From: a virus
Lineage: Duplodnaviria; Caudoviricetes
Length of the DNA: 64,000 nucleotides
Reading direction: 5' to 3' (one strand)
IMG/VR virus record: IMGVR_UViG_3300034071_000338
Span: 148 to 64,147 of that record
A program made the position numbers and the translations under genes. Positions 449 through 63,414 of this stretch are shown here, piece by piece; within the stretch, counting starts at the first letter, position 1, and each line of letters opens with the position of its first letter. The notes beneath the pieces are model-generated. The model did no database searches. It worked only from the letters and a program-made list of their open reading frames with translations, and had not been told where the DNA came from.

Positions 449-464
449 GTGTCTTCAAAGACAC
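449..464. repeat. 16-bp palindrome copy 1 (GTGTCTTCAAAGACAC)
   Basis: Exact match to the dispersed motif; lies between the putative promoter and the ATG at 488. Confidence 0.95.
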
Positions 465-1606: not shown

Positions 1607-1620
1607 CCTGACTCAGGGTG

Positions 1621-1636
1621 GTGTCTTCAAAGACAC
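1621..1636. repeat. 16-bp palindrome copy 2, inside the extended hairpin 1615-1642
   Basis: AGGGTG-GTGTCTTCAAAGACAC-TACCCT, directly 5' of hammerhead 1. Confidence 0.95.
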
Positions 1637-1641
1637 TACCC

Positions 1642-1692
1642 TCCGTAGTAGAGTGAGTACTCTACCTGATGAGCTCAAAAGAGCGAAACGGA
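1642..1692 (+). ncRNA. Type III hammerhead ribozyme 1, predicted cleavage after GUA at 1647
   Basis: UCCG-UA, stem I GUAGAG/CUCUAC, core CUGAUGA, stem II GCUC-AAAA-GAGC, GAAA, CGGA closing stem III. Confidence 0.93.
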
Positions 1693-1744
1693 AACACGTG
1701 CACTTGTGCACGTGTCCCCTCAGTAACCGATAAATATAATCAAG

Positions 1745-5581: not shown

Positions 5582-5597
5582 GTGTCTTCAAAGACAC
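5582..5597. repeat. 16-bp palindrome copy 3
   Basis: GTGTCTTCAAAGACAC, 4 nt upstream of the tRNA-like element. Confidence 0.95.
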
Positions 5598-5601
5598 AGG
5601 C

Positions 5602-5682
5602 AGTCAGGAGTCGTTGCGGTAAACGAAAGCTGAGATTAAAGACCTCAGTCTGCTCTTGTAGGTTCGAGTCCTACCCTGACTA
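5602..5682 (+). tRNA. tRNA-like element or pseudo-tRNA with an atypical anticodon arm
   Basis: 7-bp acceptor stem AGTCAGG/CCTGACT; canonical T arm GTAGG-TTCGAGT-CCTAC; D-like arm TCGTT-GCGGTA-AACGA; CTGAG/CTCAG stem with 9-nt loop ATTAAAGAC; no U8 and no encoded CCA. Confidence 0.6.
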
Positions 5683-5757
5683 CAACTAACTATTAGCTTA
5701 GCCTCAGAGGTTAATGGTTGGTATAAATAGACTGAGGCAACAAATAAATTTAGAACG

Positions 5758-6072
5758 ATGGCAAACGAAGAAAAAATCTTTGCAGACGGATTCTCATTCA
5801 AGAGAAACGAAAAGGCACCTGACTTTGTAGTTGGGAGATTATCAATGAAAGTAGATGAAGCGGTAGCGTTCATCAGACAGCACGAGAAAGGTGGATGGGT
5901 AAACCTAAACATTAAGACTGCACGTAGTGGTAATCATTATGTTGAGTTGGATACCTACGAGCCGACTGCTCAGAGTGGTATGAAACCACAATCAGAGACA
6001 GTTGCTACTCCGAAACAAAAAGCACCTCAATCTCAGGTAGCTGATGAAGAAGAAGAGGTACTTCCATTTTAA
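5758..6072 (+). CDS. Probable single-stranded DNA-binding protein
   Basis: Small beta-rich protein with acidic tail ending EEEEVLPF, within the recombination/replication cluster. Confidence 0.6.
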   Translation: MANEEKIFADGFSFKRNEKAPDFVVGRLSMKVDEAVAFIRQHEKGGWVNLNIKTARSGNHYVELDTYEPTAQSGMKPQSETVATPKQKAPQSQVADEEEEVLPF

Positions 6073-6100: not shown

Positions 6101-6127
6101 GGGGGAGTGAAAACTTCCCCTTTTTTT
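6101..6127 (+). terminator. Intrinsic terminator
   Basis: GGGGAGT-GAAA-ACTTCCCC hairpin followed by T7. Confidence 0.75.
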
Positions 6128-14280: not shown

Positions 14281-14683
14281 AACAGAGGTAGACTTAATCA
14301 GAGAGAAGAAAGCAATTGAATTATTCGTAAGCATATTTGATGGGTCATACAAGAAGCTCGACCCACAAGATGTAGACTATAAAATATTTGACAAGGATAA
14401 GAACTTAATCGCCTATGCTGAGGTTAAAGGACGCATTAGAACAATGAAGACAGCATATCCCCTTCCGGTATCAGCAAGAAAATTAGTGAAGTTAATTGAT
14501 AAAAGATTAGCACCCGTATTAATATGGGCGTGTGAGGACGGTATCATCTATGGCAAAGCAAACAAACTACAAGGACAAATCAAGTGGGGAGGTCGCCCTC
14601 CCCGTGATGGTTCATTTAGTGATTCCGAGATGATGGTCTACTTTGACAATCAGAAGGAGCTTAAGTACATTAGGTACGTTTAG
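14270..14683 (+). CDS. PD-(D/E)XK-type nuclease
   Basis: D...DY...AYAEVKGR catalytic pattern. Confidence 0.6.
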   Translation: MTFETEVDLIREKKAIELFVSIFDGSYKKLDPQDVDYKIFDKDKNLIAYAEVKGRIRTMKTAYPLPVSARKLVKLIDKRLAPVLIWACEDGIIYGKANKLQGQIKWGGRPPRDGSFSDSEMMVYFDNQKELKYIRYV

Positions 14684-17600
14684 TACAGTTTCTGTAATCC
14701 TCCTTTACCCTTTTTAGGCTTAGGAGTATAATCGTACATCTCATCTTTCATTGCTCTTTCTACACTATCCTTCTCTCTCTTAATTAATTTTTCCGCTTGT
14801 TTTGCATCATAGTCAGGAGCGTCAGGACCGAATGTTCTATACCAAAGGTCATAATCATAGCGCTTCATATCCTCTTGGTTTTGAAATCCTTGAAGTTTTT
14901 CTTCCTCAGCTTTCTTTTTATCTCCTTTAGTTCTATCAGCTTTCTCAAGGTCTTTGTAAAGGTCTTTCATTACAGCTTTACGAATGTCTTTGTATAAAGG
15001 AACAAGACCTAAGTTTCCTAATACCTCAAGAGGAATTCTTACATTAAGTTCTTTTTCTCTTCTCGCAATAGCATCTTCTTTTACCTTTTCTTTCTCTGTC
15101 ACTTTTTTAACAATAAAAGCAGCAGTATTTAACGCAGGAGTATAAGCACCTCCCATATTCATAAGTAATTTACCTAAGTCTGTTTGTTTGCTATCGTCCC
15201 TTGGTATTAATGTGTAAGCAATACCATCTTTGTATGGGTCGTAATCTCCTTCTCTTAAAAAGTCAAGGTACTTTTCATTTGCTTCTTCTATACCATAGTT
15301 TAATACATTCTTAACAGCGTTACCGAAATCTCTTCCGATTAATAATGAACTAAATGCAGAAGCGAATGCTTGACCAAGTTTCTGCATAAATGATTTTTCT
15401 GTTTCAGGCTCTTCATCATCAAAGAATAATCCCATAAGACCCGTGCCCAACATTTGAAAAATTAATCCATATAACACCATACGTGTAGCAACTGCTCCAA
15501 GAACTGCACCACCTTGTTGTTTAGTTAATGAGCCATTACCAATCGCTGCCATAATAGCTGTACGTGCTGTAACATATTCAAATATCAAAAACTTTGTCAT
15601 AAAGTTATTCATATTATTAAATGCTCTTAATGCAAGTTTTTGGTCAGGCTTTACAGTTCCTTTTAAAATACCCATAAATGGATTGTCAGTTGCTCCCACC
15701 ATTACAGACCTTTCATCTGCAAGTTCAGTAGCTTTATCAAGAGCCTCTTTGTTGGCTTCCATATACGCTTCGTCATTTGCTGCAATCTTTTCAAAGTCTA
15801 CCTCTTTTCCTGTGATATTTTCAAATTGATTAGCAAATGAACCAAACCACATAGGTCTCATTATAACTTTATCAGGAGTCGAAATCAAAGCATCAGCTTG
15901 AAGCTCAACTGCATTAACATATTTTTTACCTGACCTATTCCAAATTTGTTGAATTTTATTTTTAACAGGATTCTTTGATACAGCACCTTTAATTCCACTT
16001 GCTTGACTTAATATTGAAGTATCAACTAATCTTCCTGATAATGTATCTGTAGGGAAAATTCTATTAGTCTGCTTGCTTTTTAAGTTTTCCATTATAGTAG
16101 GAGCATCTGAAGACATAATAATTCCTCTATATTTTACACCTGATGCAAGAGCTTTAGGGTCGCTAATTACTGCAAAACCAATGTTTGAACTTAATTCGGA
16201 TACAAACCTGCTTGTACCTGCAAGTACTGCACGGTATCCTTGCTTATTTATGTAATCAAGTGCTATGTCTAATGTTGAATCCTGAGTAAATGTATTTGTC
16301 AATAAATTATCTACCGTCTCTTCAAATGCAGCATTGATAGCGTTTATTATTTGTCTTTGCTCTTTAGGTATTCTTCCTTTACTTTCTAAATTAGCAATAG
16401 TACCATTGATAGTTTTACGAGCTGTACGTATTGGCTTCGTCAAATTAAAATCCATCAATACAAACTTAGCACCACGCTGAGCACTTGCGAATACGTCAAA
16501 GTTTAATGGAGACACCTTGCCTGTTCTTGCAATCAAAGACTTTGCTTTAGTAGATGGCCTCATTGCGTTGTTATATTCAGTAACAAATGCACTTCCTGAT
16601 GTTAAATCGCTTGGTTGAAATTCGTGTAGTACGTTTAAGTGAACATAGTTATTCAACGGGTCAATTCTATCGCCACGAATAATCGCTGCAGTAAACTCAG
16701 CTTGCTCTCTTAAAGATTCGTTTATACCACGAATATCATTAATGGCATCTTTCTCAGCTTGATTAAATGATTTGTATAACTTTTCATTATCAATATTTCC
16801 ATCAGTAGAAAAATCTTTAAGTATTTGTTGCAACATTTCAGCATCACGTTCTCCAAATCGAGACTTGCCTGCATCAATGTGCTTAATGGTAGCTTTTAAA
16901 TAATCAGCAGCAGGATTTACTTCCTTGTTTCCTTTGTTTGATTCGTACTCAAGCTGAATCATATATGTCATCATCTTAAACTTAGACATAGTCACTGCAT
17001 TAGGTTCAAGCCCAAGCGATTTAGCTACTTTTTCTTCAGCTTTCTCTAATATATTTTGAACTCTATTTAATTGAGTTTTAAATGCAGCAACCGCTTTTGC
17101 AGGCTCACTGAATAATGAATTAAATATATCCTTTGTTTTAAAGTTTCCAAATAATTGGTCAATATAAAATAAAGGGTTTCTTCTAATCATCTCTAAGACA
17201 CCTGTTCTTCCTTGCATTGCAACTTCAGCTTTTACTTTAGAATACAATTGAGAAAACTTATACATTTTACTTTGCTCAACGGCTTTAGTTAAGACCTTGT
17301 CAGTATTAAGTCCATTTAATTTCTCTAACATTATCTCTCCGTAGTGAGGTAAGTAGTTGTTATTTATATTATCAATAACCTTAAGCAAGTTCTTTAACTC
17401 AGTGTTGGTTAAACCATCTACTGCATCAGTTTTAACAACCCTACTTAACTCCTTAATTGTATCTCTTTCATACTTAGTAGAAAGACCTGAGCCATCAATA
17501 GTAGATTTTTTTACTGCATCAGTTAGTTCTTTTCTTTCTGCTGCTAACTCCTCTTCGGTAAGCTCAGTTTCTTCAACTTGAGGAGCAATATCATCCTTAT

Positions 17601-20600
17601 ACTTACGCATAGTCTCTGCTTCCTTATCGTCAATCTCTTTCTCATCAAGCATTTTCTTAACTGATGCTGCGTAGTCTAACTCATTATCCTTATATACCTT
17701 GTTCTCTGAATTATTGAATCTATCAGCTAACTCATCAGCTTTTGATTGTTCGTTGTCAATCTCATCAAGGATAGCTTGAACATCTTTAGTTACTACAGAC
17801 TTCTCATCAAGTGTAAGCACTGCTTGTCTTGCGCCAAACATATCAACCAATTCTAAGTAACGACCAAGGAACTGATTAGGTATAAGTGTTGGGTTAATAG
17901 AAAATAATCTATTCAATGGTCCTACTAATCCATCAGCGATACCAATCTTAGTAACAATGTTCTTCTTAGCCATCTTTAACTTGCTCTTAGCTACGTCAAT
18001 CTTATCAGCATACTCTGCGTTTGCAAACACCTTAGCCATATAGTCAACAAAGTTTGACACTGAAATCTCGTTTAGCATATTCACCTTGCCAAATCTTGAT
18101 ACAATATTAGCTGCTTGGATAGATGTAATCTTTCCTTTTGATGCCATCTCTCTAATGTCCTTAGCCAATTCCTTAGCTGCATCTCTTGATAAGTCTCTGA
18201 TTTGCTTGATGACAAGCATCTTCTCTTCTCTTGAGATATTGGTAATGTCTTTTAATGCGCCAAGCACACGTCCAATTGACACAGCACGCTTAGCTCCAAC
18301 ACCCATTTTAAATCTACCTTCACGCTCCATTACTTTCTTCTGAGCATCTGTAGCTCGACTATACACCTCAGAGTTTCTAATTAAAGTATCTAAGTTTGAT
18401 ATTATCTTGGCATCAGCTATACCTCTTCTTTTTTGACGAGTAATTAACTCATCAACCTTTGTCATTAATTCAGTGTAGCCCGGCAACTTATCTTCAGTAA
18501 CTTTTTCTCTTTCATTGAAAAAGTCTGTTACCGTTTTTTCTATATTATTTCTCTTAGCTTCTCCTAATACGTTTACTATTTCTTTTATGGCTTCTTTTAA
18601 TGCGACAGAAAATTCTACTCCTCTATCCATTAACCTACCAATCTCAACAACTGACTTAGCTATTAATCTCTTAAATTCATCTGCGCTTAATCCTGCTTTT
18701 TGAGTTCCTTCAGGTAGCGTAGGAGTAAACCAAGATGGCAATTCAAAGTTATCTATATCTTCAGCTAACTTTAATGCTTTGGTTTCAAACTCACCTTTAG
18801 CTTTAGTCTTAGCTTTTTTAGCTGCAACTTTAGCTTTTTCTTTAGCCTTTTTATTTTGCTCTTTGTCAAACTCTTTCTTCTTAATCTTATTATAACTATC
18901 AGCAACTGCTTGCTTAGCTTCTCCTAATGTTTCAAATCCATCAAAGCCAATCTCATTACCATCAATATCCTCTGCGGTAAATGAGAACATTTTATCTTCA
19001 TCAGTAAGTTTTGTTATAGTTCCAATAGGGTCACCATCTGCATTACGTGCTTCAACAGTAAGTGATGATATGTATGTTACAGTTCTTCCACTTTCAGTTT
19101 CTTTTTCATCTTCAAGATAGTCAATAGCATTATCCTTAGTGAACGCATCAGTCTTAACTTCAGACGCTTGCACAGGGACAAACTGCTCTTCTTCTTCTAT
19201 TACAAGAGTAGCTTCTGCTTGAACAGGCTTATAGTCTATTAAAGATTGCGGAGCCTTACCATTGTTACCTGCATCCCATTGTGACTTATCAGCAGCATCT
19301 ACATTGTTTTTAAATGCTTCTACATCATTCATAAAGGATTCGGCAAGTGTAGAATTTGGATTAGTAAATGCATCATAATATAAGTCGCTTAATCTTGCGG
19401 CCTCATCTCTTAAATTATCATCTACATTAGTATCTCTTTGAATCTCATAAAAATAATGACCAAGCCCATCAGGGATATTCCAACCAAGACGAGCACGTAC
19501 TGCATCTAACTTTTGTTTAGCTGTAGCTTTTTGTTTCTCATCTCCGGTAAATCCTTTTAAGCCATCTTTAGCTAAATAGGCTTCATTGGTAATCACTTGA
19601 ACTTCTGCGATTGTACCATTAGATGTACGAATTTCAATAAGTCTTTTTGGATAACCTAAGTCTGTAGTCTCGGTAATTCTTCTTAATTCTTTGTCGCCCG
19701 GATATTTCTCATCAATTGTTTTAAATACTTTATCAGCATTAGCTTCAGTATCTACTACAATATTTACACGTGCGCCATCACCAAGTTTTTCGGTGAATGC
19801 ATTATACCATCTGATAGCTTTAACAGATGCACGTTCAGGGCGTTTAATTGGGAATGGGGATATGGATGCATCAACTTCAGCAATGGCATCTTGTGCAATG
19901 CTTTCTACTTCGGCCTTAGCGTCTTCGTAAAGTTTTTTATTTGTTTCAAATGTACGCTGCACTGCAGGCTGTACTACTTTATTTAACTCGTTAAATCGAG
20001 TTTGTTCTTCAGGAGATAACTTTTTTCCTTCTTTTTGTAAATCAATTTCTTTTTGACGCAAGTCAGCAAGTTCAACTGCAAGTGCTTCTACTTTTGTGGT
20101 TGATTCTTTGAACGATTTAAGAACGTCACTTCTATCGAATTGTCTTGTTGGGTCTGAGGTTCCTTCATTTTTGGCTCCTTGGTAAGAAGATTTTTTGATT
20201 CTAACCGTTGGTTTAACTTTGACATTAGGTCCGAGTACATCAGCCGTTGCTTTTTCGGCTGCGATTGACTTTGAGTCAAGGTCTCTTGTTCGTTCTTCAT
20301 ATTGTTCATCTTCTGTTAAATTTTGTTGGTCAGTATCTTCAAAGAATTTAATTATAGATACTTTAATCTCGTTATTATTAATGTTGAATGCCTCAACACC
20401 ATTCTTTTCAAGTTCAACTGACAGGTCTGTAACTTGTTCGTCAGTTATTGGTTCATCAAAGGTATAAATAATTTGTGGATAATGCATCAAATTATTTTCA
20501 TCAAATTCAGTAAGAGGTATATCTCTCTTTCCACTAAACACATCTGACTCATATTCAGAGTCTGTTTCTAATATAAATGCATCTTGAGAATACTTCTCAG

Positions 20601-23256
20601 CAAAGTCAAATAATAACTTACTAACTGCTTCAGTATTAGCTTGTGGACTAATTGATAGAATCATATTAAATGATGGCTCAAATGAACCATTCCATAAGCC
20701 ACGCTTAGGGTCGCTAAACTTAACAGCTACACCATCAACTTTTGCTACTTCATCAATAATATCTTGCTTAGCATCGTTTAATATTTGATTTTCAGCTTCC
20801 TTTATCTTAGCAAGAACTTTAGGGTCTTTCTTTTTAGCGTATTGCTTAACAAACTTGTCATAGTTCAATGACAACTTCTTAATCCTTTTAGTTACAGGCG
20901 TAGCTTCACGTACTGTAGCCGGAGTAATTAATACAGATATATCTCTAACTAACTTAGGAGCTTGTGTCTTTAAAGACACTTTTTGTTCTGCTTTTAATGT
21001 TTCTAACTCACTATTTATCTCATCAATACGAGCACGTGTTTTTAATTGAATTGGAGAATTAGGCATTTGCTTTAACGCTTTAGAGGTCAAAGACACCTTT
21101 TCTTTTTCAAGTTTATTTATTTTTTCAATTACTTCTTGCGTCCCGATTTCAGGAGTGACCTCTTCGGTCCTTGTGGTAACGACTTGAGGTCCTTGGTCTC
21201 CTTCGACCACTTGCTGCAATCCCACTTCGGGTTGTTCTGTGCGTAGCACGCCTTCATCTGTTGTTTGTTTTTGAATGGCATAATCTTTTGCTTGTTTACC
21301 GGTTAATGTATATGAATATCCTTCTCCTATTTTTCCTGATATTTTTTTTCCTAATGGAAGACCAAATATCATTTTTCTACCCTCGAACTCAATGCCTTCT
21401 TTTTTTACGGCTATATCTCTGAATTGTTCAGGTACTTCTTCAAGTGTTTTTACATTGAAAGTAACATTTTCATTATCATCTAATGAAGATATTTCTTCAG
21501 GAATACCTAATGTCACTTCTTCCACTTGTGGCTTAGACTCCATTATAATCTGTTGTATTTGATTGTTGAGGTCAGCAATCTCTTGCTTTTCTCTTGCTAC
21601 AAGTACATCATCTTTATTCTGAATGTCAGTTTTTAATTGGTCTCTTTGTCTAAGTAAAGTAGCAATCTGAGCCTTCTCTGCATTGGTAACCTTTAAGTCT
21701 TTTACAGCATTTGAAACCTGCTGTACCTTATCGAATACATACAATGATTGCTTTGCTTCATCTTCTGAAATCTCACCATCCTTTACTTTCTTAGTTAAGT
21801 TCTTAGATAATATATCTCTTGACTTATTAGTATTAGCTATTTGGATTTGTTCTGCTGTAATAGGAGCATCTTTTGATACATTAAATACTTGGTCTAATTT
21901 TGTATCAGTGTCTTTTAATACGGCATTTATCTCTTCCTTAGACTTGTATGTCTCAACAAGATTAGTTACCTTATCCTTTGCTTTCATTGCATTGATAGGA
22001 GCTGTGAATACCACACCACTGCCTGCACCTGTTACAAATGCATCAGCAACACCTTCAAACGTAGGCTTATTACTAAGCACATTCTGAGTGATTTGAGTAG
22101 CTGCTTCTTCAATACCTTCACCCAATAGACCAATAGGAGCACCATACTTTGTCAATGCACCTTTATAAGCCTGAACTAAACCATCTCTAAAAATATTCTT
22201 TCCTACTTCTACACCTTCTTTCTTAACAATGTCTTTATAAACCTGACCAATTGTACCTGTACCAATTGCACTAAATACAGTCTCAGCCGCAGACATACCT
22301 AATGCCTTTACGGTCTTTTCAATCTCAGGCATATCAGGATTTTCTTCGCCTAATTGCTCTCTATTTTGTTCAAGGAATCCGGCAGTACTAATTGCTGCTA
22401 ACTCAGCAGGAGCAAGCGTAGCTCCTCCCATCATCATAGCTATACTTACAGGAGCAGACTCTACAATGCTACTTCCAAGTAATTCAAATGCATCATTATA
22501 GTTGCCCTTCTGTATATTGTCTACAATACCTGAGCTTTCGTATCTTTCTTTATTAAATTTAGCAGTAACCTCTTGTAATCTTTTTTCTTCTTCGTTTAAC
22601 TTGTTTAATACGGGATTGCTTATGCCAAACTGCTTTTTAAATGTATCAGCGTTAGCTGCAATATCCCAACCTGTAGCCCAAGCCAATGCATTCTGAGGTA
22701 TAGATGCAATATTGATAACCGTCTCAGGTATAGATGCAACCATCTTCTCCAATGAGGTAAGACCTGATAATGCTCTTGTGCCTATGTTTTTTAAGTAAAC
22801 GTTTTCTTCCTCAGGCATTTCAAGCGCTCCTAAATTCTTAAGTAATTTTTCTTTTTTAGGCGGAGCCATCTCAGGTATAACATTCGTTATAGTTTCAGGA
22901 AGAGGCGTAACACCTGTTGGCGTTGCAAATCCTGTCTCTGCTGCTACTTGTCCTTCTCTAAGAAATTTAGGAAGCGGTTTTGACGAAACCAAAGAAGTAT
23001 CTTCCGAAGGTAATTCCGTAGTACCTTTTTTTTTTAATTCAGGCTGAGCACTAAATCCAAACTCAGGGAACTTGCTAAACACCTCATCTTCCGTAGCATA
23101 CTTGCCACTATTAGAAGTAGCAACAAAGTCTCTTAAAGCCTGAACATCATATCCTTTTAATTCAGGAAACTTAGAAAGTAACGTAGCTTCGTCAGCATAT
23201 TTACCACTATTTGATGTAGCAACAAAATCTCTTAACGCTTGTTTTAAATCCGACAT
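14680..23256 (-). CDS. Giant putative internal virion/ejection (polyvalent) protein with a RelA/SpoT-like domain
   Basis: 2858 aa, last gene of the structural operon; N-terminal 33-aa tandem repeat; synthetase-like motifs near aa 1130-1295. Confidence 0.75.
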   Translation of the reverse strand: MSDLKQALRDFVATSNSGKYADEATLLSKFPELKGYDVQALRDFVATSNSGKYATEDEVFSKFPEFGFSAQPELKKKGTTELPSEDTSLVSSKPLPKFLREGQVAAETGFATPTGVTPLPETITNVIPEMAPPKKEKLLKNLGALEMPEEENVYLKNIGTRALSGLTSLEKMVASIPETVINIASIPQNALAWATGWDIAANADTFKKQFGISNPVLNKLNEEEKRLQEVTAKFNKERYESSGIVDNIQKGNYNDAFELLGSSIVESAPVSIAMMMGGATLAPAELAAISTAGFLEQNREQLGEENPDMPEIEKTVKALGMSAAETVFSAIGTGTIGQVYKDIVKKEGVEVGKNIFRDGLVQAYKGALTKYGAPIGLLGEGIEEAATQITQNVLSNKPTFEGVADAFVTGAGSGVVFTAPINAMKAKDKVTNLVETYKSKEEINAVLKDTDTKLDQVFNVSKDAPITAEQIQIANTNKSRDILSKNLTKKVKDGEISEDEAKQSLYVFDKVQQVSNAVKDLKVTNAEKAQIATLLRQRDQLKTDIQNKDDVLVAREKQEIADLNNQIQQIIMESKPQVEEVTLGIPEEISSLDDNENVTFNVKTLEEVPEQFRDIAVKKEGIEFEGRKMIFGLPLGKKISGKIGEGYSYTLTGKQAKDYAIQKQTTDEGVLRTEQPEVGLQQVVEGDQGPQVVTTRTEEVTPEIGTQEVIEKINKLEKEKVSLTSKALKQMPNSPIQLKTRARIDEINSELETLKAEQKVSLKTQAPKLVRDISVLITPATVREATPVTKRIKKLSLNYDKFVKQYAKKKDPKVLAKIKEAENQILNDAKQDIIDEVAKVDGVAVKFSDPKRGLWNGSFEPSFNMILSISPQANTEAVSKLLFDFAEKYSQDAFILETDSEYESDVFSGKRDIPLTEFDENNLMHYPQIIYTFDEPITDEQVTDLSVELEKNGVEAFNINNNEIKVSIIKFFEDTDQQNLTEDEQYEERTRDLDSKSIAAEKATADVLGPNVKVKPTVRIKKSSYQGAKNEGTSDPTRQFDRSDVLKSFKESTTKVEALAVELADLRQKEIDLQKEGKKLSPEEQTRFNELNKVVQPAVQRTFETNKKLYEDAKAEVESIAQDAIAEVDASISPFPIKRPERASVKAIRWYNAFTEKLGDGARVNIVVDTEANADKVFKTIDEKYPGDKELRRITETTDLGYPKRLIEIRTSNGTIAEVQVITNEAYLAKDGLKGFTGDEKQKATAKQKLDAVRARLGWNIPDGLGHYFYEIQRDTNVDDNLRDEAARLSDLYYDAFTNPNSTLAESFMNDVEAFKNNVDAADKSQWDAGNNGKAPQSLIDYKPVQAEATLVIEEEEQFVPVQASEVKTDAFTKDNAIDYLEDEKETESGRTVTYISSLTVEARNADGDPIGTITKLTDEDKMFSFTAEDIDGNEIGFDGFETLGEAKQAVADSYNKIKKKEFDKEQNKKAKEKAKVAAKKAKTKAKGEFETKALKLAEDIDNFELPSWFTPTLPEGTQKAGLSADEFKRLIAKSVVEIGRLMDRGVEFSVALKEAIKEIVNVLGEAKRNNIEKTVTDFFNEREKVTEDKLPGYTELMTKVDELITRQKRRGIADAKIISNLDTLIRNSEVYSRATDAQKKVMEREGRFKMGVGAKRAVSIGRVLGALKDITNISREEKMLVIKQIRDLSRDAAKELAKDIREMASKGKITSIQAANIVSRFGKVNMLNEISVSNFVDYMAKVFANAEYADKIDVAKSKLKMAKKNIVTKIGIADGLVGPLNRLFSINPTLIPNQFLGRYLELVDMFGARQAVLTLDEKSVVTKDVQAILDEIDNEQSKADELADRFNNSENKVYKDNELDYAASVKKMLDEKEIDDKEAETMRKYKDDIAPQVEETELTEEELAAERKELTDAVKKSTIDGSGLSTKYERDTIKELSRVVKTDAVDGLTNTELKNLLKVIDNINNNYLPHYGEIMLEKLNGLNTDKVLTKAVEQSKMYKFSQLYSKVKAEVAMQGRTGVLEMIRRNPLFYIDQLFGNFKTKDIFNSLFSEPAKAVAAFKTQLNRVQNILEKAEEKVAKSLGLEPNAVTMSKFKMMTYMIQLEYESNKGNKEVNPAADYLKATIKHIDAGKSRFGERDAEMLQQILKDFSTDGNIDNEKLYKSFNQAEKDAINDIRGINESLREQAEFTAAIIRGDRIDPLNNYVHLNVLHEFQPSDLTSGSAFVTEYNNAMRPSTKAKSLIARTGKVSPLNFDVFASAQRGAKFVLMDFNLTKPIRTARKTINGTIANLESKGRIPKEQRQIINAINAAFEETVDNLLTNTFTQDSTLDIALDYINKQGYRAVLAGTSRFVSELSSNIGFAVISDPKALASGVKYRGIIMSSDAPTIMENLKSKQTNRIFPTDTLSGRLVDTSILSQASGIKGAVSKNPVKNKIQQIWNRSGKKYVNAVELQADALISTPDKVIMRPMWFGSFANQFENITGKEVDFEKIAANDEAYMEANKEALDKATELADERSVMVGATDNPFMGILKGTVKPDQKLALRAFNNMNNFMTKFLIFEYVTARTAIMAAIGNGSLTKQQGGAVLGAVATRMVLYGLIFQMLGTGLMGLFFDDEEPETEKSFMQKLGQAFASAFSSLLIGRDFGNAVKNVLNYGIEEANEKYLDFLREGDYDPYKDGIAYTLIPRDDSKQTDLGKLLMNMGGAYTPALNTAAFIVKKVTEKEKVKEDAIARREKELNVRIPLEVLGNLGLVPLYKDIRKAVMKDLYKDLEKADRTKGDKKKAEEEKLQGFQNQEDMKRYDYDLWYRTFGPDAPDYDAKQAEKLIKREKDSVERAMKDEMYDYTPKPKKGKGGLQKLY
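20964..20979. repeat. 16-bp palindrome copy 5 (inside giant protein gene)
   Basis: GTGTCTTTAAAGACAC, read as VSLKT. Confidence 0.95.
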
Positions 23257-34921: not shown

Positions 34922-34955
34922 AAAAAAGGGAGAGTGTCTTTAAAGACACCCTCCC
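34922..34955 (-). terminator. Major-capsid terminator whose stem contains palindrome copy 6 (34934-34949)
   Basis: GGGAGG-GTGTCTTTAAAGACAC-TCTCCC-TTTTTT on the - strand, 17 nt after the capsid stop codon. Confidence 0.85.
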
Positions 34956-60153: not shown

Positions 60154-60455
60154 AATAATTGTTTTTGAAGTGTGAAATATTTCAAGGTAAAGATAAGATT
60201 TTTTTTAGATGGTATTAGTGTTTGGGCTATAGGGGGTTTTTGGCGATAGGACCCCCCAACGGAAATGACTTTTTTTTGACGGGTACGGGTACACGTTTTA
60301 AACTTTCCTTGCTAATTTTTTAGCTTTTTGGTAGCGCCATCGATGGAAACGAGCGCCTTGTTGCGCTCCGCTCCGCTCCCGTCCTCCGTATTGCGTCCAA
60401 CGAAGCGCCTGAGACTCACGTATTCGCTCCGCTCCCGTCCTTTGCTCCGTACTTT

Positions 60456-60615: not shown

Positions 60616-60645
60616 TTTGTAGTATTCAGAATTGAACTATATTTG
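60616..60645 (+). promoter_or_regulatory. Early promoter, Bacteroidota sigma-A consensus
   Basis: TTTG (60616-60619), 18-nt spacer, TATATTTG (60638-60645); upstream of ATG 60685. Confidence 0.7.
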
Positions 60646-61322: not shown

Positions 61323-62192
61323 ATGAACGGAGTAATTTACCAAACAACGGGTCAACGTGAGCGTGGTCAAGTTCAACATTACCATCGTAAGCCGAGCCCA
61401 CTATTTTTGAACAAGACTAAGCACGTTGTTGACGTTGCGGGTCTTAAGAAAGCCGACCAACGTACGGCTATCAAGTTCGAGGGTCAAGACATTGAGGCTA
61501 AGTTCACCATCGGTTTCGAGGTTGAAAAAAATCAACTTCACCGAGGTGCGGTGCGTGAGTATGAATTGTTTTGTGGTTTCGAGCGTGATGGGTCTTGCGG
61601 TTACGAGGCCGTTACCCACGTGCTCCCTTTATTGCCATCGGGTGGGTGGCGCACTAAGGTTTACGATATGATGCACAAGGCCGAAAAAATTATCGATGAT
61701 AGATACAGCCCGAGCGATAGACGTTGCGGAGGCCATATCACGATAGCGGTTGACGGCTTGAGCGGTGACCAACTTCGTGAGGCGGTGCGTAAAAATTGCG
61801 GTATCATTTACGCCTTATTCAAGAAGCGCCTTACGAACAACTATTGCAGTTACAATAATCGTATGCAATCTTACAACGAGTGTACTAATTGGCATAGCAA
61901 GTACCAATTGGCGCTCGTTAAGGGTGGTTGCCTTGAGTTTAGGGTGCCAAGCCGTTTCGAGTCAGTAAAGCAAATGATGAGACGCTATGAGTTGTTTTAC
62001 GAGGTAGTTAACGCCTCCGTATCAGGCACAAGCCACGAGGCGCTCCTTAAGAAGCTAAAGCCCGTTATCGTGTCAATGTACAACGGGGATACAGCCAAGG
62101 CTGACGAGGTGCTAAGACTCGCTAAGTTATTCAGGACGTACATTCTGAAAGGTGAGGTGCATCAGGACATTCTACCTTACTTGTCAAGGTAG
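61323..62192 (+). CDS. Amidoligase (COOH-NH2 ligase, glutamine synthetase/GCS2-like fold)
   Basis: TIGFEVE, DGS..YEAVT, CGGHITI and LEFR motifs. Confidence 0.8.
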   Translation: MNGVIYQTTGQRERGQVQHYHRKPSPLFLNKTKHVVDVAGLKKADQRTAIKFEGQDIEAKFTIGFEVEKNQLHRGAVREYELFCGFERDGSCGYEAVTHVLPLLPSGGWRTKVYDMMHKAEKIIDDRYSPSDRRCGGHITIAVDGLSGDQLREAVRKNCGIIYALFKKRLTNNYCSYNNRMQSYNECTNWHSKYQLALVKGGCLEFRVPSRFESVKQMMRRYELFYEVVNASVSGTSHEALLKKLKPVIVSMYNGDTAKADEVLRLAKLFRTYILKGEVHQDILPYLSR

Positions 62193-62203
62193 CAACAACG
62201 GGA

Positions 62204-62219
62204 GTGTCTTCAAAGACAC
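62204..62219. repeat. 16-bp palindrome copy 10, inside hairpin 62200-62223
   Basis: GGGA-GTGTCTTCAAAGACAC-TCCC, abutting hammerhead 2. Confidence 0.95.
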
Positions 62220-62223
62220 TCCC

Positions 62224-62274
62224 TCCGTAGCGGAGTGAGTGCTCCGCCTGACGAGGCCTAAAGGCCGAAACGGA
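62224..62274 (+). ncRNA. Type III hammerhead ribozyme 2, predicted cleavage after GUA at 62229
   Basis: UCCG-UA, stem I GCGGAG/CUCCGC, core CUGACGA, stem II GGCC-UAAA-GGCC, GAAA, CGGA. Confidence 0.93.
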
Positions 62275-62320
62275 ATTTTAAAACCGAAGGTTTAAAACCC
62301 CTTCAAAAATCAAAATCAAA

Positions 62321-63298: not shown

Positions 63299-63327
63299 AA
63301 GTGAGGGTGTACTTCGAGCGTATGCGA

Positions 63328-63343
63328 GTGTCTTCAAAGACAC
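63328..63343. repeat. 16-bp palindrome copy 11
   Basis: GTGTCTTCAAAGACAC, 19 nt upstream of hammerhead 3; an extra right half-site AAGACAC lies at 63356-63362. Confidence 0.95.
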
Positions 63344-63362
63344 AAGCGTACACTCAAGACAC

Positions 63363-63414
63363 TCCGTCCCTGAGTGTGTTGCTCGGGCTGATGAGTCCTA
63401 AAGGACGAAACGGA
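63363..63414 (+). ncRNA. Type III hammerhead ribozyme 3, predicted cleavage after GUC at 63368
   Basis: UCCG-UC, stem I CCUGAG/CUCGGG, core CUGAUGA, stem II GUCC-UAAA-GGAC, GAAA, CGGA. Confidence 0.93.

What the first reader, a model, noticed from the sequence alone, without database searches (positions are those of the whole stretch)
1615..1715. Palindrome-plus-hammerhead cassettes punctuate the phage early transcript (3 copies)
Seen: three intergenic, sense-strand type III hammerheads at 1642-1692, 62224-62274 and 63363-63414. All have an intact core (CUGANGA...GAAA, NUH = GUA, GUA, GUC) and an identical stem III (UCCGU/ACGGA). Stems I and II differ in sequence but covary (GUAGAG/CUCUAC, GCGGAG/CUCCGC, CCUGAG/CUCGGG; GCUC, GGCC, GUCC). 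Each ribozyme follows a stop codon and the same 16-bp palindrome. Two are also followed by a hairpin (1694-1715; about 62276-62297). Known: loop 1 starting with U and loop 2 ending with A fits the loop-loop contact of fast natural hammerheads, and hammerheads have been reported in phage intergenic regions without an assigned function. Inference: this is a repeated self-processing module that cuts the early polycistron into units with a 3' hairpin plus cyclic phosphate and a 5'-OH end, setting mRNA stability without host RNases. The fixed pairing with a genome-wide palindrome is not something I recognise as described.
Basis: partly seen in the sequence, partly recalled or inferred. Interest (0 to 1): 0.93.

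Follow-up and report, generated by a model that had tools for sequence, protein, structure and literature searches.

The report
Hairpin-hammerhead units between phage early genes
Three genuine self-cutting hammerhead RNAs lie between early genes of a 64-kb lake phage, each placed directly after a strong hairpin, and over a hundred related elements in other phages share this hairpin-then-ribozyme layout, which suggests they cut a long message into separately protected pieces, a role proposed for phage hammerheads in 2011 but not yet shown.

Summary
Three complete type III hammerheads lie at 1642-1692, 62224-62274 and 63363-63414. Rfam RF00008 scores are 37-41 bits, below the 48.5 cut-off, with whole-window E-values of 2e-4 to 1e-5. 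All three sit on the + strand of one circularly assembled 64-kb phage, between a host-type promoter (60616) and a terminator (6101).

The palindrome pairing is not the rule: 8 of the window's 11 palindrome copies have no ribozyme. In a set of hammerheads chosen without regard to what lies upstream, only 15 of 52 carry this palindrome, yet 37 of 52 have a strong hairpin ending within 3 nt of stem III (controls 3 and 5 of 52).

Over all 132 distinct hammerheads, 120 have such a hairpin. In 114 of these the cut would leave a 5-8 nt tail. A co-directional gene ends about 34 nt upstream, and a start codon follows within 7-28 nt in 40 of 52.

Best reading (0.55): a self-contained mRNA punctuation unit. 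No RNA data exist. Ribozyme processing of phage transcripts was proposed in 2011. This scan has noted the same layout on other DNA. The constant hairpin-to-ribozyme geometry is the new part.

The parts
60616..60645 (+). Putative host-type (Bacteroidota) early promoter, TTTG-N19-TATATTTG, 40 nt before the first + strand gene (ATG 60685)
   Evidence: one of only 2 full matches on the + strand of the window. The consensus is recalled, not taken from a tool.
62200..62223 (+). Hairpin 2 (10 bp, UCAA loop, -18.1 kcal/mol) built on palindrome 62204-62219. It starts 8 nt after the stop codon (62190-62192) and abuts stem III.
62224..62274 (+). Type III hammerhead 2; predicted cut after A62229
   Evidence: 38.7 bits, E 8e-5. 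The minimum-energy fold of 62193-62320 gives exactly hairpin plus complete hammerhead.
62277..62304 (+). Downstream motif with two overlapping alternative hairpins (AAACC/GGUUU and GAAGG/CCUUC), then an A-rich leader and ATG 62321
   Evidence: The same motif type follows hammerheads in L123, L131, L153, L154, L163 and L203 with changes on both strands of both stems (read by eye). It is absent from the closest relative, L137.
63312..63358 (+). Hairpin 3, long and imperfect (-22.4 kcal/mol), containing palindrome 63328-63343; 4 nt before the ribozyme. In a longer context the pairing reaches 63305-63364.
63363..63414 (+). Type III hammerhead 3; predicted cut after C63368; ATG 63437 lies 22 nt after its 3' end
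   Evidence: 41.4 bits, E 1.4e-5. Orthologues in at least 10 relatives show compensatory stem I changes.
449..464 (+). Palindrome copy without a ribozyme: followed by a 23-nt leader and ATG 488
1616..1641 (+). Hairpin 1 (11 bp including one G-U, -19.7 kcal/mol) built on palindrome 1621-1636. It starts 10 nt after the stop codon (1604-1606) and abuts stem III.
1642..1692 (+). Type III hammerhead 1; predicted cut after A1647
   Evidence: 37.2 bits, E 2.1e-4
1695..1716 (+). Downstream 9-bp hairpin between hammerhead 1 and ATG 1745. Not present in the closest relative.
5582..5597 (+). Palindrome copy followed by a tRNA-like cloverleaf instead of a hammerhead
5600..5683 (+). tRNA-like element (7-bp acceptor stem, canonical T arm, abnormal anticodon arm). 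Possible RNase P/Z substrate at the same position relative to the hairpin as the ribozymes.
   Evidence: tRNA-Sec model, 24.9 bits against a cut-off of 47, E 0.0045 over 201 nt; cloverleaf as the minimum-energy fold; ARAGORN finds none
6101..6127 (+). Strong intrinsic terminator-like site (8-bp GC-rich stem plus T7); likely end of the early transcription unit

Best explanation
Each unit is a self-contained intercistronic RNA-processing module inside one long early transcript made by the host polymerase. The transcript would run from about 60616 across the assembly junction to about 6127.

The unit reads: stop codon, a few nt, stable hairpin, type III hammerhead, about 20 nt of A-rich leader, start codon.

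The ribozyme cuts itself after H17 as it is transcribed. The upstream message then ends in a -18 to -22 kcal/mol hairpin followed by a tail of only 5-8 nt with a 2',3'-cyclic phosphate. That tail is too short for 3' exonucleases to grip and cannot be extended by tailing enzymes that need a 3'-OH. The short (5 bp) open stem III lets this product leave, so the cut is not reversed.

The downstream message starts with a 5'-OH and the compact body of the ribozyme (stems I and II), just ahead of an unstructured leader and its start codon. Neighbouring cistrons are thereby uncoupled in decay and folding without any host RNase.

The 16-nt palindrome is a separate, lineage-specific hairpin element of this phage group. 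It is used in several ways: alone, with a T-run as a terminator, with a tRNA-like element, or with a ribozyme.

Shown: the motifs, their conservation, covariation and geometry. Inferred: cleavage in vivo, the polycistronic transcript, and the stabilising effects.
For: 1. Genuine ribozyme motif. The core is intact in all three and Rfam matches the full model. Four complete relatives hold 3, 3, 4 and 4 matches clustered on one strand, the best at 49.2 bits, above the cut-off.

2. Structure under selection. In a set picked only by stem III plus core (73 raw matches, 54 distinct), 49 of 54 have a stem I of at least 5 bp and 50 of 54 a stem II of at least 4 bp. Shuffled interiors give 2.0% and 2.4%. 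On 62 aligned distinct sequences, 13 of 15 pairs show changes on both sides, and the covariation score is 0.752 against 0.226 shuffled and at most 0.138 for slid partners. The first base of loop 1 (U) and the last base of loop 2 (A) are invariant in 62 of 62, although neither was required by any pattern.

3. Hairpin rule. A hairpin of -10 kcal/mol or better ends within 3 nt of the ribozyme in 37 of 52, against 3 of 52 and 5 of 52 in control windows. A second set, picked only by core plus stem II, gives 27 of 38 against 4 and 3. Over all 132 distinct hammerheads, 120 have a hairpin of -5 kcal/mol or better, and the hairpin-to-cut distance is 5-8 nt in 114 of the 120, most often 6.

4. Hairpin sequence is free. 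Orthologous ribozymes carry different hairpins (window site 3 against L137; L253 against L259). One contig (L145) has four ribozymes with four unrelated GC-rich hairpins.

5. Intercistronic position. A same-strand ORF of at least 50 aa stops within 100 nt upstream in 102 of 111, median 34 nt. An ORF start lies 7-28 nt downstream in 40 of 52.

6. One transcription unit is plausible. A host-type promoter match sits at 60616. The scans list no + strand terminator-like site from there to 64000, and between 1 and 6100 only two weak ones, both inside ORFs (1087, 3733). A strong one lies at 6101.

7. The same palindrome hairpin carries a T-run, as in a terminator, at 34934 in the window and at 25 of 120 transcription-oriented intergenic copies in relatives. 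It precedes a tRNA-like fold at 5582. Both fit a hairpin that marks RNA 3' ends.
Against: There are no RNA data of any kind, so cleavage, transcript ends and the polycistron are all inferred.

The three ribozymes score below Rfam's gathering threshold.

A purely structural hairpin does not explain why all 11 copies in this genome share 14 invariant bases. It also does not explain why 4 copies lie inside ORFs, or why relatives carry other palindromes that are likewise uniform within a genome: MW202828.1 has 13 copies of a different one and no ribozyme. Something sequence-specific probably reads the hairpin, and its role could be different, for example a regulator site.

The closest named relative does without ribozymes, so the units are dispensable.

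The minimum-energy fold of site 1 omits stem III, and at site 3 the hairpin can compete with the first 2 nt of stem III.

The exonuclease toe-hold lengths and the promoter consensus are recalled from E. coli and Bacteroidota literature. They were not tested and may not transfer to this unknown host.

The hairpin counts include loci that were fetched because they hold the palindrome. Only searches are free of that bias.
Confidence: 0.55

Rival explanations
1. Translation switch or insulator. The purpose of the cut is to free the downstream leader from upstream RNA, so that the next start codon is read efficiently and independently of context. This resembles the synthetic RiboJ insulator, or the ribozyme-dependent translation reported in RNA viruses. 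The hairpin would only keep upstream sequence from disturbing ribozyme folding.
For: The ribozyme ends 7-28 nt before an ORF start in 40 of 52. The leaders are A-rich and lack a Shine-Dalgarno sequence. Self-cleavage in a 5' UTR is required for translation in a chrysovirus (PMC13725137, abstract and passages). Sites 1 and 2 carry extra downstream structures between ribozyme and ATG.
Against: It does not explain the narrow 5-8 nt distance from hairpin to cut, or why the same hairpin type also forms terminators. The eukaryotic cap-independent mechanism has no obvious bacterial counterpart. This reading is compatible with the best explanation rather than exclusive of it.
Confidence: 0.15
2. Hairpin promoter with 5' trimming. 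The palindrome hairpin is a promoter or start-site element, as in the hairpin promoters of phage N4. The ribozyme then removes a 6-8 nt triphosphate leader and gives 5'-OH messages.
For: All copies within a genome are identical, and each lineage has its own version, as expected for a site read by a co-evolving protein. In MW202828.1 the palindrome precedes most of the small early genes by about 16-40 nt (10 of its 13 copies). The central dinucleotide is oriented with transcription in 120 of 147 asymmetric intergenic copies. A start about 11 nt from the hairpin centre would fall 1-2 nt before stem III at site 1 (own arithmetic; the N4 geometry is recalled).
Against: No RNA polymerase domain was found in the giant proteins (Pfam; PDB sequences; weak atlas leads point to tail proteins). 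Most ribozyme-linked hairpins in other lineages are unrelated GC-rich stems, even within one contig (L145). Copies with T-runs look like terminators. Four copies in the window are inside ORFs. The hairpin abuts stem III with no gap in 52 of 80, which leaves no room for a start site after it.
Confidence: 0.08
3. Leaky terminator with a fail-safe. The hairpin is a weak terminator. Polymerases that read through make the ribozyme, which cuts a few nt further on, so the upstream message gets nearly the same 3' end either way while downstream genes are still expressed.
For: Several lineages have the hairpin followed by UUU, which becomes part of a 7-bp stem III (L122, L129, L157, L166, L176). The palindrome hairpin with a T-run occurs at 34934 and in 25 of 120 oriented intergenic copies in relatives.
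Against: In this window, C or U-C-C follows the three hairpins, not a U tract. The terminator scan lists none of them on the + strand.
Confidence: 0.1
4. Selfish or neutral mobile cassette. The hairpin-plus-ribozyme units spread between intergenic sites and phages without benefit to the phage.
For: Presence is patchy. The closest named relative has none, and cultured relatives have none or only weak candidates. The downstream add-on motifs come and go between close relatives.
Against: Site 3 is orthologous in at least 10 relatives, with compensatory changes and the same downstream gene. Position relative to stop and start codons is tightly constrained. There are no flanking repeats and no associated transposase or reverse transcriptase in the Pfam hits of the neighbouring genes.
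Confidence: 0.1

Closest known systems
Clustered cis hammerheads flanking single genes in prophages and phages (Perreault et al. 2011, PLoS Comput Biol, PMC3088659; passages read)
   Same: Several hammerheads close together, same strand, between genes of a phage. The authors proposed that long phage transcripts are cut to gene-length mRNAs. In haloviruses HF1 and HF2 a hammerhead lies 13 nt before a start codon, and a mapped 5' end lies within 3 nt of the cut.
   Different: Those examples are mostly type I and II. In the passages I read, no upstream hairpin, fixed hairpin-to-cut distance or repeated palindrome is mentioned ('terminator' occurs 0 times and 'hairpin' 2 times, the one occurrence shown concerning ribozyme loops). 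Their supplementary figures were not available to me.
Type III hammerhead family, Rfam RF00008
   Same: Full core, three helices with stem III open, H17 = A or C, conserved loop bases consistent with a loop-loop contact.
   Different: Short 4-nt loop 2 and 6-7-nt loop 1. Scores are 37-41 bits, below the 48.5 cut-off. The elements are encoded in DNA phage operons rather than in viroid-like circular RNAs.
RNase III processing sites of the phage T7 early transcript (recalled, no call)
   Same: It works like this. A long early polycistron is cut between genes, and the upstream product keeps a 3'-terminal hairpin that stabilises it.
   Different: In T7 the cut is made by a host enzyme within a roughly 20-bp hairpin. 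Here the RNA would cut itself 5-8 nt after a 10-12-bp hairpin and would leave a cyclic phosphate and a 5'-OH.
REP (repetitive extragenic palindromic) elements of enterobacteria (recalled, no call)
   Same: Many near-identical palindromic hairpins in intergenic regions, able to protect upstream mRNA from 3' exonucleases.
   Different: The element here is phage-borne. Some copies lie inside ORFs. No RAYT-type transposase was seen. Each phage lineage has its own version.
RiboJ synthetic ribozyme insulator (recalled, no call)
   Same: A hammerhead placed just before a translation start to cut away upstream RNA, with an added hairpin.
   Different: RiboJ is engineered and its hairpin lies downstream of the ribozyme. 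Here the conserved hairpin is upstream.

Membership tests
Hammerhead ribozyme, type III (Rfam RF00008) | Conserved core C3-U4-G5-A6-N7-G8-A9 and G12-A13-A14 | tested here: met
   CUGAUGA, CUGACGA and CUGAUGA, each with GAAA, in all three
Hammerhead ribozyme, type III (Rfam RF00008) | A15.1-U16.1 pair and a cleavage-site base H17 that is not G | tested here: met
   GUA, GUA and GUC. Among 132 distinct relatives H17 is C in 111, A in 20 and U in 1, but G was excluded by my filter.
Hammerhead ribozyme, type III (Rfam RF00008) | Three helices, with stems I and II closed by loops and stem III open, supported by covariation | tested here: met
   (49 of 54 and 50 of 54 keep stems I and II, against about 2% of shuffles). 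(13 of 15 pairs with changes on both sides). The rows were preselected for pairing.
Hammerhead ribozyme, type III (Rfam RF00008) | Score at or above Rfam's gathering threshold (48.5 bits) | tested here: not met
   37.2, 38.7 and 41.4 bits. One orthologue in a relative reaches 49.2. The shortfall comes from the short loops, not from the core.
Hammerhead ribozyme, type III (Rfam RF00008) | Self-cleavage giving 2',3'-cyclic phosphate and 5'-OH ends | not testable with these tools
   No RNA run was listed as holding the DNA. This needs in vitro transcription or end mapping.
Clustered phage hammerheads that process polycistronic mRNA (Perreault 2011) | Several ribozymes on the coding strand between co-directional genes of one transcription unit | tested here: met
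   Three lie within 3.5 kb across the assembly junction. A same-strand ORF stops within 100 nt upstream in 102 of 111 relatives. Promoter and terminator matches bracket the block. The transcript itself is inferred.
N4-type hairpin promoters | A phage-encoded (virion) RNA polymerase that reads DNA hairpins | tested here: not met
   No polymerase domain found by Pfam or by PDB sequence search. Weak atlas leads point to tail proteins. Sequence searches can miss distant polymerases, so this is weak negative evidence.
Intrinsic terminators | GC-rich hairpin followed directly by a U tract | tested here: not met
   None of the three ribozyme-linked hairpins is listed on the + strand. The palindrome copy at 34934 does meet it on the - strand.

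The most novel reading that the evidence does not exclude
Hairpin, type III hammerhead and leader together form a widespread mRNA punctuation system that needs no host RNase. It would be used by hundreds of aquatic phages and, according to unchecked notes of this scan, by ultra-small bacteria as well. Its geometry (a cut 5-8 nt after a strong hairpin) would have evolved to make sealed, exonuclease-proof 3' ends and 5'-OH starts. In this phage group the hairpin tip (a GUGUC-type stem capped by UUCAAA) would in addition be read by a sequence-specific factor that co-evolves with each lineage, which would link ribozyme processing to a genome-wide regulatory code. If so, bacterial and phage hammerheads would finally have a defined and testable job.
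Probability: 0.3. Interest if true: 0.7.

Novelty: new variant of a known kind. Interest (0 to 1): 0.52.

Why it matters
The function of nearly all bacterial and phage hammerheads is still open. The 2019 review PMC6765202 (passages read) says additional work is needed to define their purpose. This finding gives that question a concrete structural rule: a stable hairpin whose sequence is free but whose position is fixed, so that the cut falls 5-8 nt after it, between a stop codon and the next start codon. The rule was measured on 132 distinct elements against controls.

It predicts exact RNA ends and a stability phenotype that standard end-mapping and half-life experiments can check. It also offers a compact natural part (hairpin plus 51-nt ribozyme plus leader) for separating cistrons in Bacteroidota, which lack Shine-Dalgarno-based tools.

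It does not change what is known about hammerhead chemistry, and the general idea of transcript processing is already in print.

Tried and rejected
RNA evidence: the look-up of sequencing runs listed no RNA holder. Only one DNA run, possibly the source of this DNA, holds the stretch.

Rfam at gathering thresholds found nothing in the window. The matches appear only in E-value mode.

Other ribozyme classes: the whole-window E-value scan gave only the three hammerheads and one chance-level L20 leader match.

Cultured model systems:
- MW202828.1, the closest named relative (TerL 79% identical), has no hammerhead.
- Flavobacterium phage elemoA has one regex candidate with a weak stem III and no upstream hairpin. 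It did not reach E 0.01 in Rfam.
- Of five Cellulophaga and Tenacibaculum phages, only phi19:3 gave a weak match (24.6 bits), which by eye is a type I hammerhead.
- BLAST of site 3 against GenBank phages found nothing.

Phage RNA polymerase, in support of the promoter rival: not found.

Trans-cleavage idea, taken from an earlier scan note: the ribozyme-less palindromes at 449 and 5582 are not followed by a UCCGU(H) substrate (by eye). Rejected.

Sigma-70-type promoter scan: counts equal the shuffles, so it is uninformative for this host.

My first regex for the downstream two-hairpin motif was too strict and found only 2 sites. What I say about that motif rests on reading by eye.

Literature: no paper describing a hairpin abutting phage hammerheads turned up in the searches. 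This covers only the held library. Subscription papers and all supplementary files were not seen. The supplementary figures of Perreault 2011 in particular could show such hairpins.

Not used: the search for homologous proteins, the search of protein representatives, structure prediction, fold search, complex prediction, build_rna_model.

Rows dropped:
- Alignment A1 holds 62 of the 78 distinct hammerheads. The 16 left out (L121, L124, L126, L129, L132, L133, L138, L147, L150, L156, L157, L162, L164, L174, L179, L182) have longer or unusual loops and would have added gaps.
- In one search, 69 core matches were not parsed as type III and were not studied further.
- Elements nearer than 120 nt, 60 nt or 700/400 nt to a locus end were dropped.
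Full report
WHAT THE WINDOW IS. The window is all but the first 147 nt of a single 64,147-nt virus contig. The contig's two ends repeat 127 nt, so it is a circle closed by assembly. GC content is 37%.

Genes on the + strand run from about 60685 across the junction to 14683. They are small early genes, then recombination and replication genes: a Sak annealing protein, a PDDEXK nuclease and a BT4734-type primase. Genes on the - strand fill 14680-60150: terminase, portal, virion proteins, GroEL and giant proteins of 2858, 1613 and 2068 aa.

The terminase is 79% identical to that of an uncultured 60.8-kb podovirus, MW202828.1. It is 45% identical to Flavobacterium elemoviruses and 37-38% identical to Cellulophaga phages. 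The host is therefore probably a member of the Flavobacteriia. The three ribozymes, which look far apart in window coordinates, lie within 3.5 kb of each other on the circle.

THE OBSERVATION. Rfam's Hammerhead_3 model aligns to each over its full length. Scores are 37.2, 38.7 and 41.4 bits, and whole-window E-values are 2.1e-4, 8e-5 and 1.4e-5. This is below the curated cut-off of 48.5, so the default scan reports nothing. The deficit comes from the short loops. My regex finds no other hammerhead core with a stem II on either strand.

The 16-nt palindrome occurs at 11 sites, against 0.02 matches expected by chance. At sites 1 and 2 it is the tip of an 11-bp or 10-bp hairpin (-19.7 and -18.1 kcal/mol) that ends on the base before stem III. 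At site 3 it is the tip of a longer imperfect hairpin (-22.4 kcal/mol) that ends 4 nt before the ribozyme. For site 2, the minimum-energy fold of the whole intergenic region is exactly hairpin plus complete hammerhead.

RELATIVES. Three scans of IMG/VR brought in 286 loci. These scans used the palindrome, a pattern of stem III plus core, and a pattern of core plus stem II.

The second scan did not require stems I or II or anything upstream. Of its 54 distinct matches, 49 have a stem I of at least 5 bp and 50 have a stem II of at least 4 bp, against about 2% after shuffling the interiors.

On an alignment of 62 distinct sequences (16 of 78 left out because of odd loops), 13 of 15 pairs change on both sides. 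The covariation score is 0.752, against 0.226 for shuffled partners and at most 0.138 for slid partners. Those rows had been chosen by a filter that demands pairing, so the percentage paired is not evidence. The variety of pair types is. The first base of loop 1 and the last base of loop 2 are invariant in all 62, although nothing selected for them.

Four complete relatives of 60-64 kb each have 3-4 Infernal matches on one strand within a few kb, one of them above the Rfam cut-off. Each also has 10-11 copies of the palindrome. The ribozymes are therefore real, conserved elements of a large group of uncultured aquatic phages.

THE RULE IS HAIRPIN, NOT PALINDROME. In the unbiased set, only 15 of 52 distinct elements have the palindrome within 60 nt upstream. 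Yet 37 of 52 have a hairpin of -10 kcal/mol or better that ends within 3 nt of the ribozyme. Control windows 80-120 nt upstream and 60-100 nt downstream give 3 of 52 and 5 of 52. At -5 kcal/mol the counts are 47 against 15 and 19.

The third scan gives an independent set with many different stem III sequences: 27 of 38 against 4 and 3.

Pooling everything (a set that includes palindrome-selected loci), 120 of 132 distinct hammerheads have an abutting hairpin. The distance from the end of the hairpin to the cut is 5-8 nt in 114 of the 120, most often 6.

The hairpins differ freely. There are other palindromes with the same style of tip, and plain GC-rich stems. One contig (L145) has four ribozymes behind four unrelated hairpins. 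Orthologous ribozymes with the same downstream gene carry different hairpins: window site 3 against L137, and L253 against L259.

That result is found. What replaces it is a stronger and more general linkage.

CONTEXT. A co-directional ORF of at least 50 aa stops within 100 nt upstream in 102 of 111 elements, at a median of 34 nt. That is just enough room for the hairpin. An ORF of at least 40 aa starts 7-28 nt after the ribozyme in 40 of 52. In 9 it starts further away and in 3 none was found. The unit therefore reads: stop, hairpin, ribozyme, about 20 nt of A-rich leader, start.

In the window, a match to the Bacteroidota promoter consensus (TTTG-N19-TAnnTTTG, recalled) lies at 60616-60645, 40 nt before the first + strand gene. 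It is one of only two such matches on that strand. The terminator scans list no + strand site from there to 64000. Between 1 and 6100 they list only two weak sites, both inside ORFs. A strong hairpin with T7 lies at 6101-6127. A single early transcript of about 9.5 kb that carries all three ribozymes is therefore plausible but unproven.

THE PALINDROME AS A SEPARATE ELEMENT. In the window, 8 of 11 copies have no ribozyme. Copy 449 goes straight into a leader and start codon. Copy 5582 abuts a tRNA-like cloverleaf. Copy 34934, with a T-run, forms a terminator on the - strand. Copy 60456 lies in the divergent control region. Four copies are inside ORFs.

Among 233 distinct copies in relatives, 172 are intergenic. 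Of the asymmetric intergenic ones, 120 read CA and 27 read TG on the strand of the nearest ORF. Of the 120, 35 are followed by a hammerhead, 25 by a T-run and 60 by neither.

MW202828.1 has no copy of this palindrome. Instead it has 13 copies of a different perfect palindrome in its early region. Ten of them lie in the short gap between one gene's stop codon and a start codon 16-40 nt downstream, and the other 3 have no nearby start. It has no hammerhead.

Uniformity within a genome, with compensated differences between lineages, suggests that something sequence-specific reads the hairpin. I could not identify it. This is the main fact that the structural explanation leaves unexplained.

MECHANISM. 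I commit to self-processing (confidence 0.55). The nascent ribozyme cuts after H17. The upstream message keeps a strong 3' hairpin and a tail of 5-8 nt ending in a cyclic phosphate. The 5-bp stem III releases it. The downstream message begins with a 5'-OH and the folded ribozyme body, just ahead of an open leader.

That short tails and blocked 3' ends resist PNPase, RNase II, RNase R and tailing enzymes is established for E. coli (recalled) and is only inferred for this host. So is the poor recognition of 5'-OH ends by 5'-end-dependent RNases.

Two observations fit a hairpin that marks RNA 3' ends. The tRNA-like element stands at the same place behind a palindrome hairpin and could recruit RNase P. 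Other copies of the hairpin carry a T-run and look like terminators.

The rivals are a translation or insulator role (0.15), a leaky terminator with a fail-safe (0.10), a selfish cassette (0.10) and a hairpin promoter with 5' trimming (0.08). The first two are compatible with the main reading.

COMPARISON WITH WHAT IS KNOWN. Perreault et al. 2011 described multiple hammerheads flanking genes in prophages. They showed cleavage in vitro and in E. coli for some, and proposed processing of long phage transcripts. They also noted a halovirus hammerhead 13 nt before a start codon with a matching mapped 5' end (passages). A 2019 review still calls the purpose undefined (passages). A 2026 paper shows that ribozyme cleavage is needed for translation in some RNA viruses, and it sets DNA-phage hits aside as already described.

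The presence of hammerheads in phage intergenic regions and the processing idea are therefore known. My six literature searches found no description of an obligatory upstream hairpin or of the fixed hairpin-to-cut distance. The library is incomplete and supplements were closed.

Notes of this same scan report the layout 'stop codon, hairpin, type III hammerhead' on other DNA: e1-4512187, e1-4727716 and e1-6073490. They are unchecked AI notes. They tell me the pattern is not peculiar to this phage, and I do not count them as support.

In function the closest analogue is RNase III processing of the T7 early transcript, with the enzyme replaced by the RNA itself (recalled).

VERDICT. I class it as a new variant of a known kind: a known ribozyme in a known type of context, with a new, quantified architectural rule. 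The central idea is in print, the palindrome linkage fails as stated, and nothing has been shown at the RNA level.

Noticed in passing
window 5600-5683 (+): A tRNA-like cloverleaf directly abuts the palindrome hairpin at 5582. It has a 7-bp acceptor stem, a canonical T arm, and a 6-bp anticodon stem with a 9-nt loop. Rfam tRNA-Sec scores 24.9 bits (cut-off 47, E 0.0045 over 201 nt), and ARAGORN calls nothing. It may be an RNase P/Z processing signal at the position that ribozymes occupy elsewhere.
   Followed up: partly
window 62277-62304 (+); also L123, L131, L153, L154, L163, L203 just after their hammerheads: A recurrent motif of about 28 nt with two overlapping, mutually exclusive hairpins (AAACC/GGUUU and GNAGG/CCUNC) lies between a hammerhead and the next start codon. 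By eye, both stems change in a compensated way between phages. It is absent from the closest relative at the same site. It could be a switch.
   Followed up: partly
L181 (MW202828.1 44000-60850): The closest named relative has 13 identical copies of a different perfect 16-nt palindrome (GTGTCGTTAACGACAC). Ten lie a few nt after a stop codon and 16-40 nt before the next start codon. It has no hammerhead and no copy of the window's palindrome.
   Followed up: partly
all loci, hairpins upstream of hammerheads: The hairpin tip UUCAAA (a U-A pair closing a UCAA loop) caps 38 of 120 ribozyme-linked hairpins, on at least four different stems (GUGUCU.., GUCCGU.., GGGGG.., GAGGG..). UUUAAA caps 9 more. 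The conserved tip on variable stems suggests a recognised loop.
   Followed up: no
window 14680-23256 (-), residues 1103-1301 of the 2858-aa protein: Similarity to the (p)ppApp synthetase domain of Tas1 (PDB 6ox6, E 5.9e-6, 26.7 bits) inside a giant protein, presumably of the virion.
   Followed up: no
window 60330-60455: A GC-rich stretch with repeated GCTCCGCTCCCGTCC-like units, unusual in a genome of 37% GC. It lies next to palindrome copy 60456 in the divergent region between the - strand block and the early promoter.
   Followed up: no
window 60616-60645 and 6101-6127 (+): A match to the Bacteroidota promoter consensus just before the first early gene, and a strong hairpin-T7 terminator after ORF 5758-6072. 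Together they would delimit an early transcription unit of about 9.5 kb across the assembly junction.
   Followed up: partly
L294 1501-1560 (-) = Cellulophaga phage phi19:3, NC_021789.1 about 21783-21840: A probable type I hammerhead (core CUGACGA, stem II GUCC/GGAC, closed stem III, open stem I) in an intergenic region about 40 nt before a start codon of a cultured phage. Rfam Hammerhead_3 gives only 24.6 bits. It is a possible laboratory system for phage hammerhead function.
   Followed up: partly
genome ends (contig 1-127 and 64021-64147): An exact 127-nt terminal repeat. This is most simply an assembly overlap of a circular or circularly permuted genome, not a biological terminal repeat.
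   Followed up: partly
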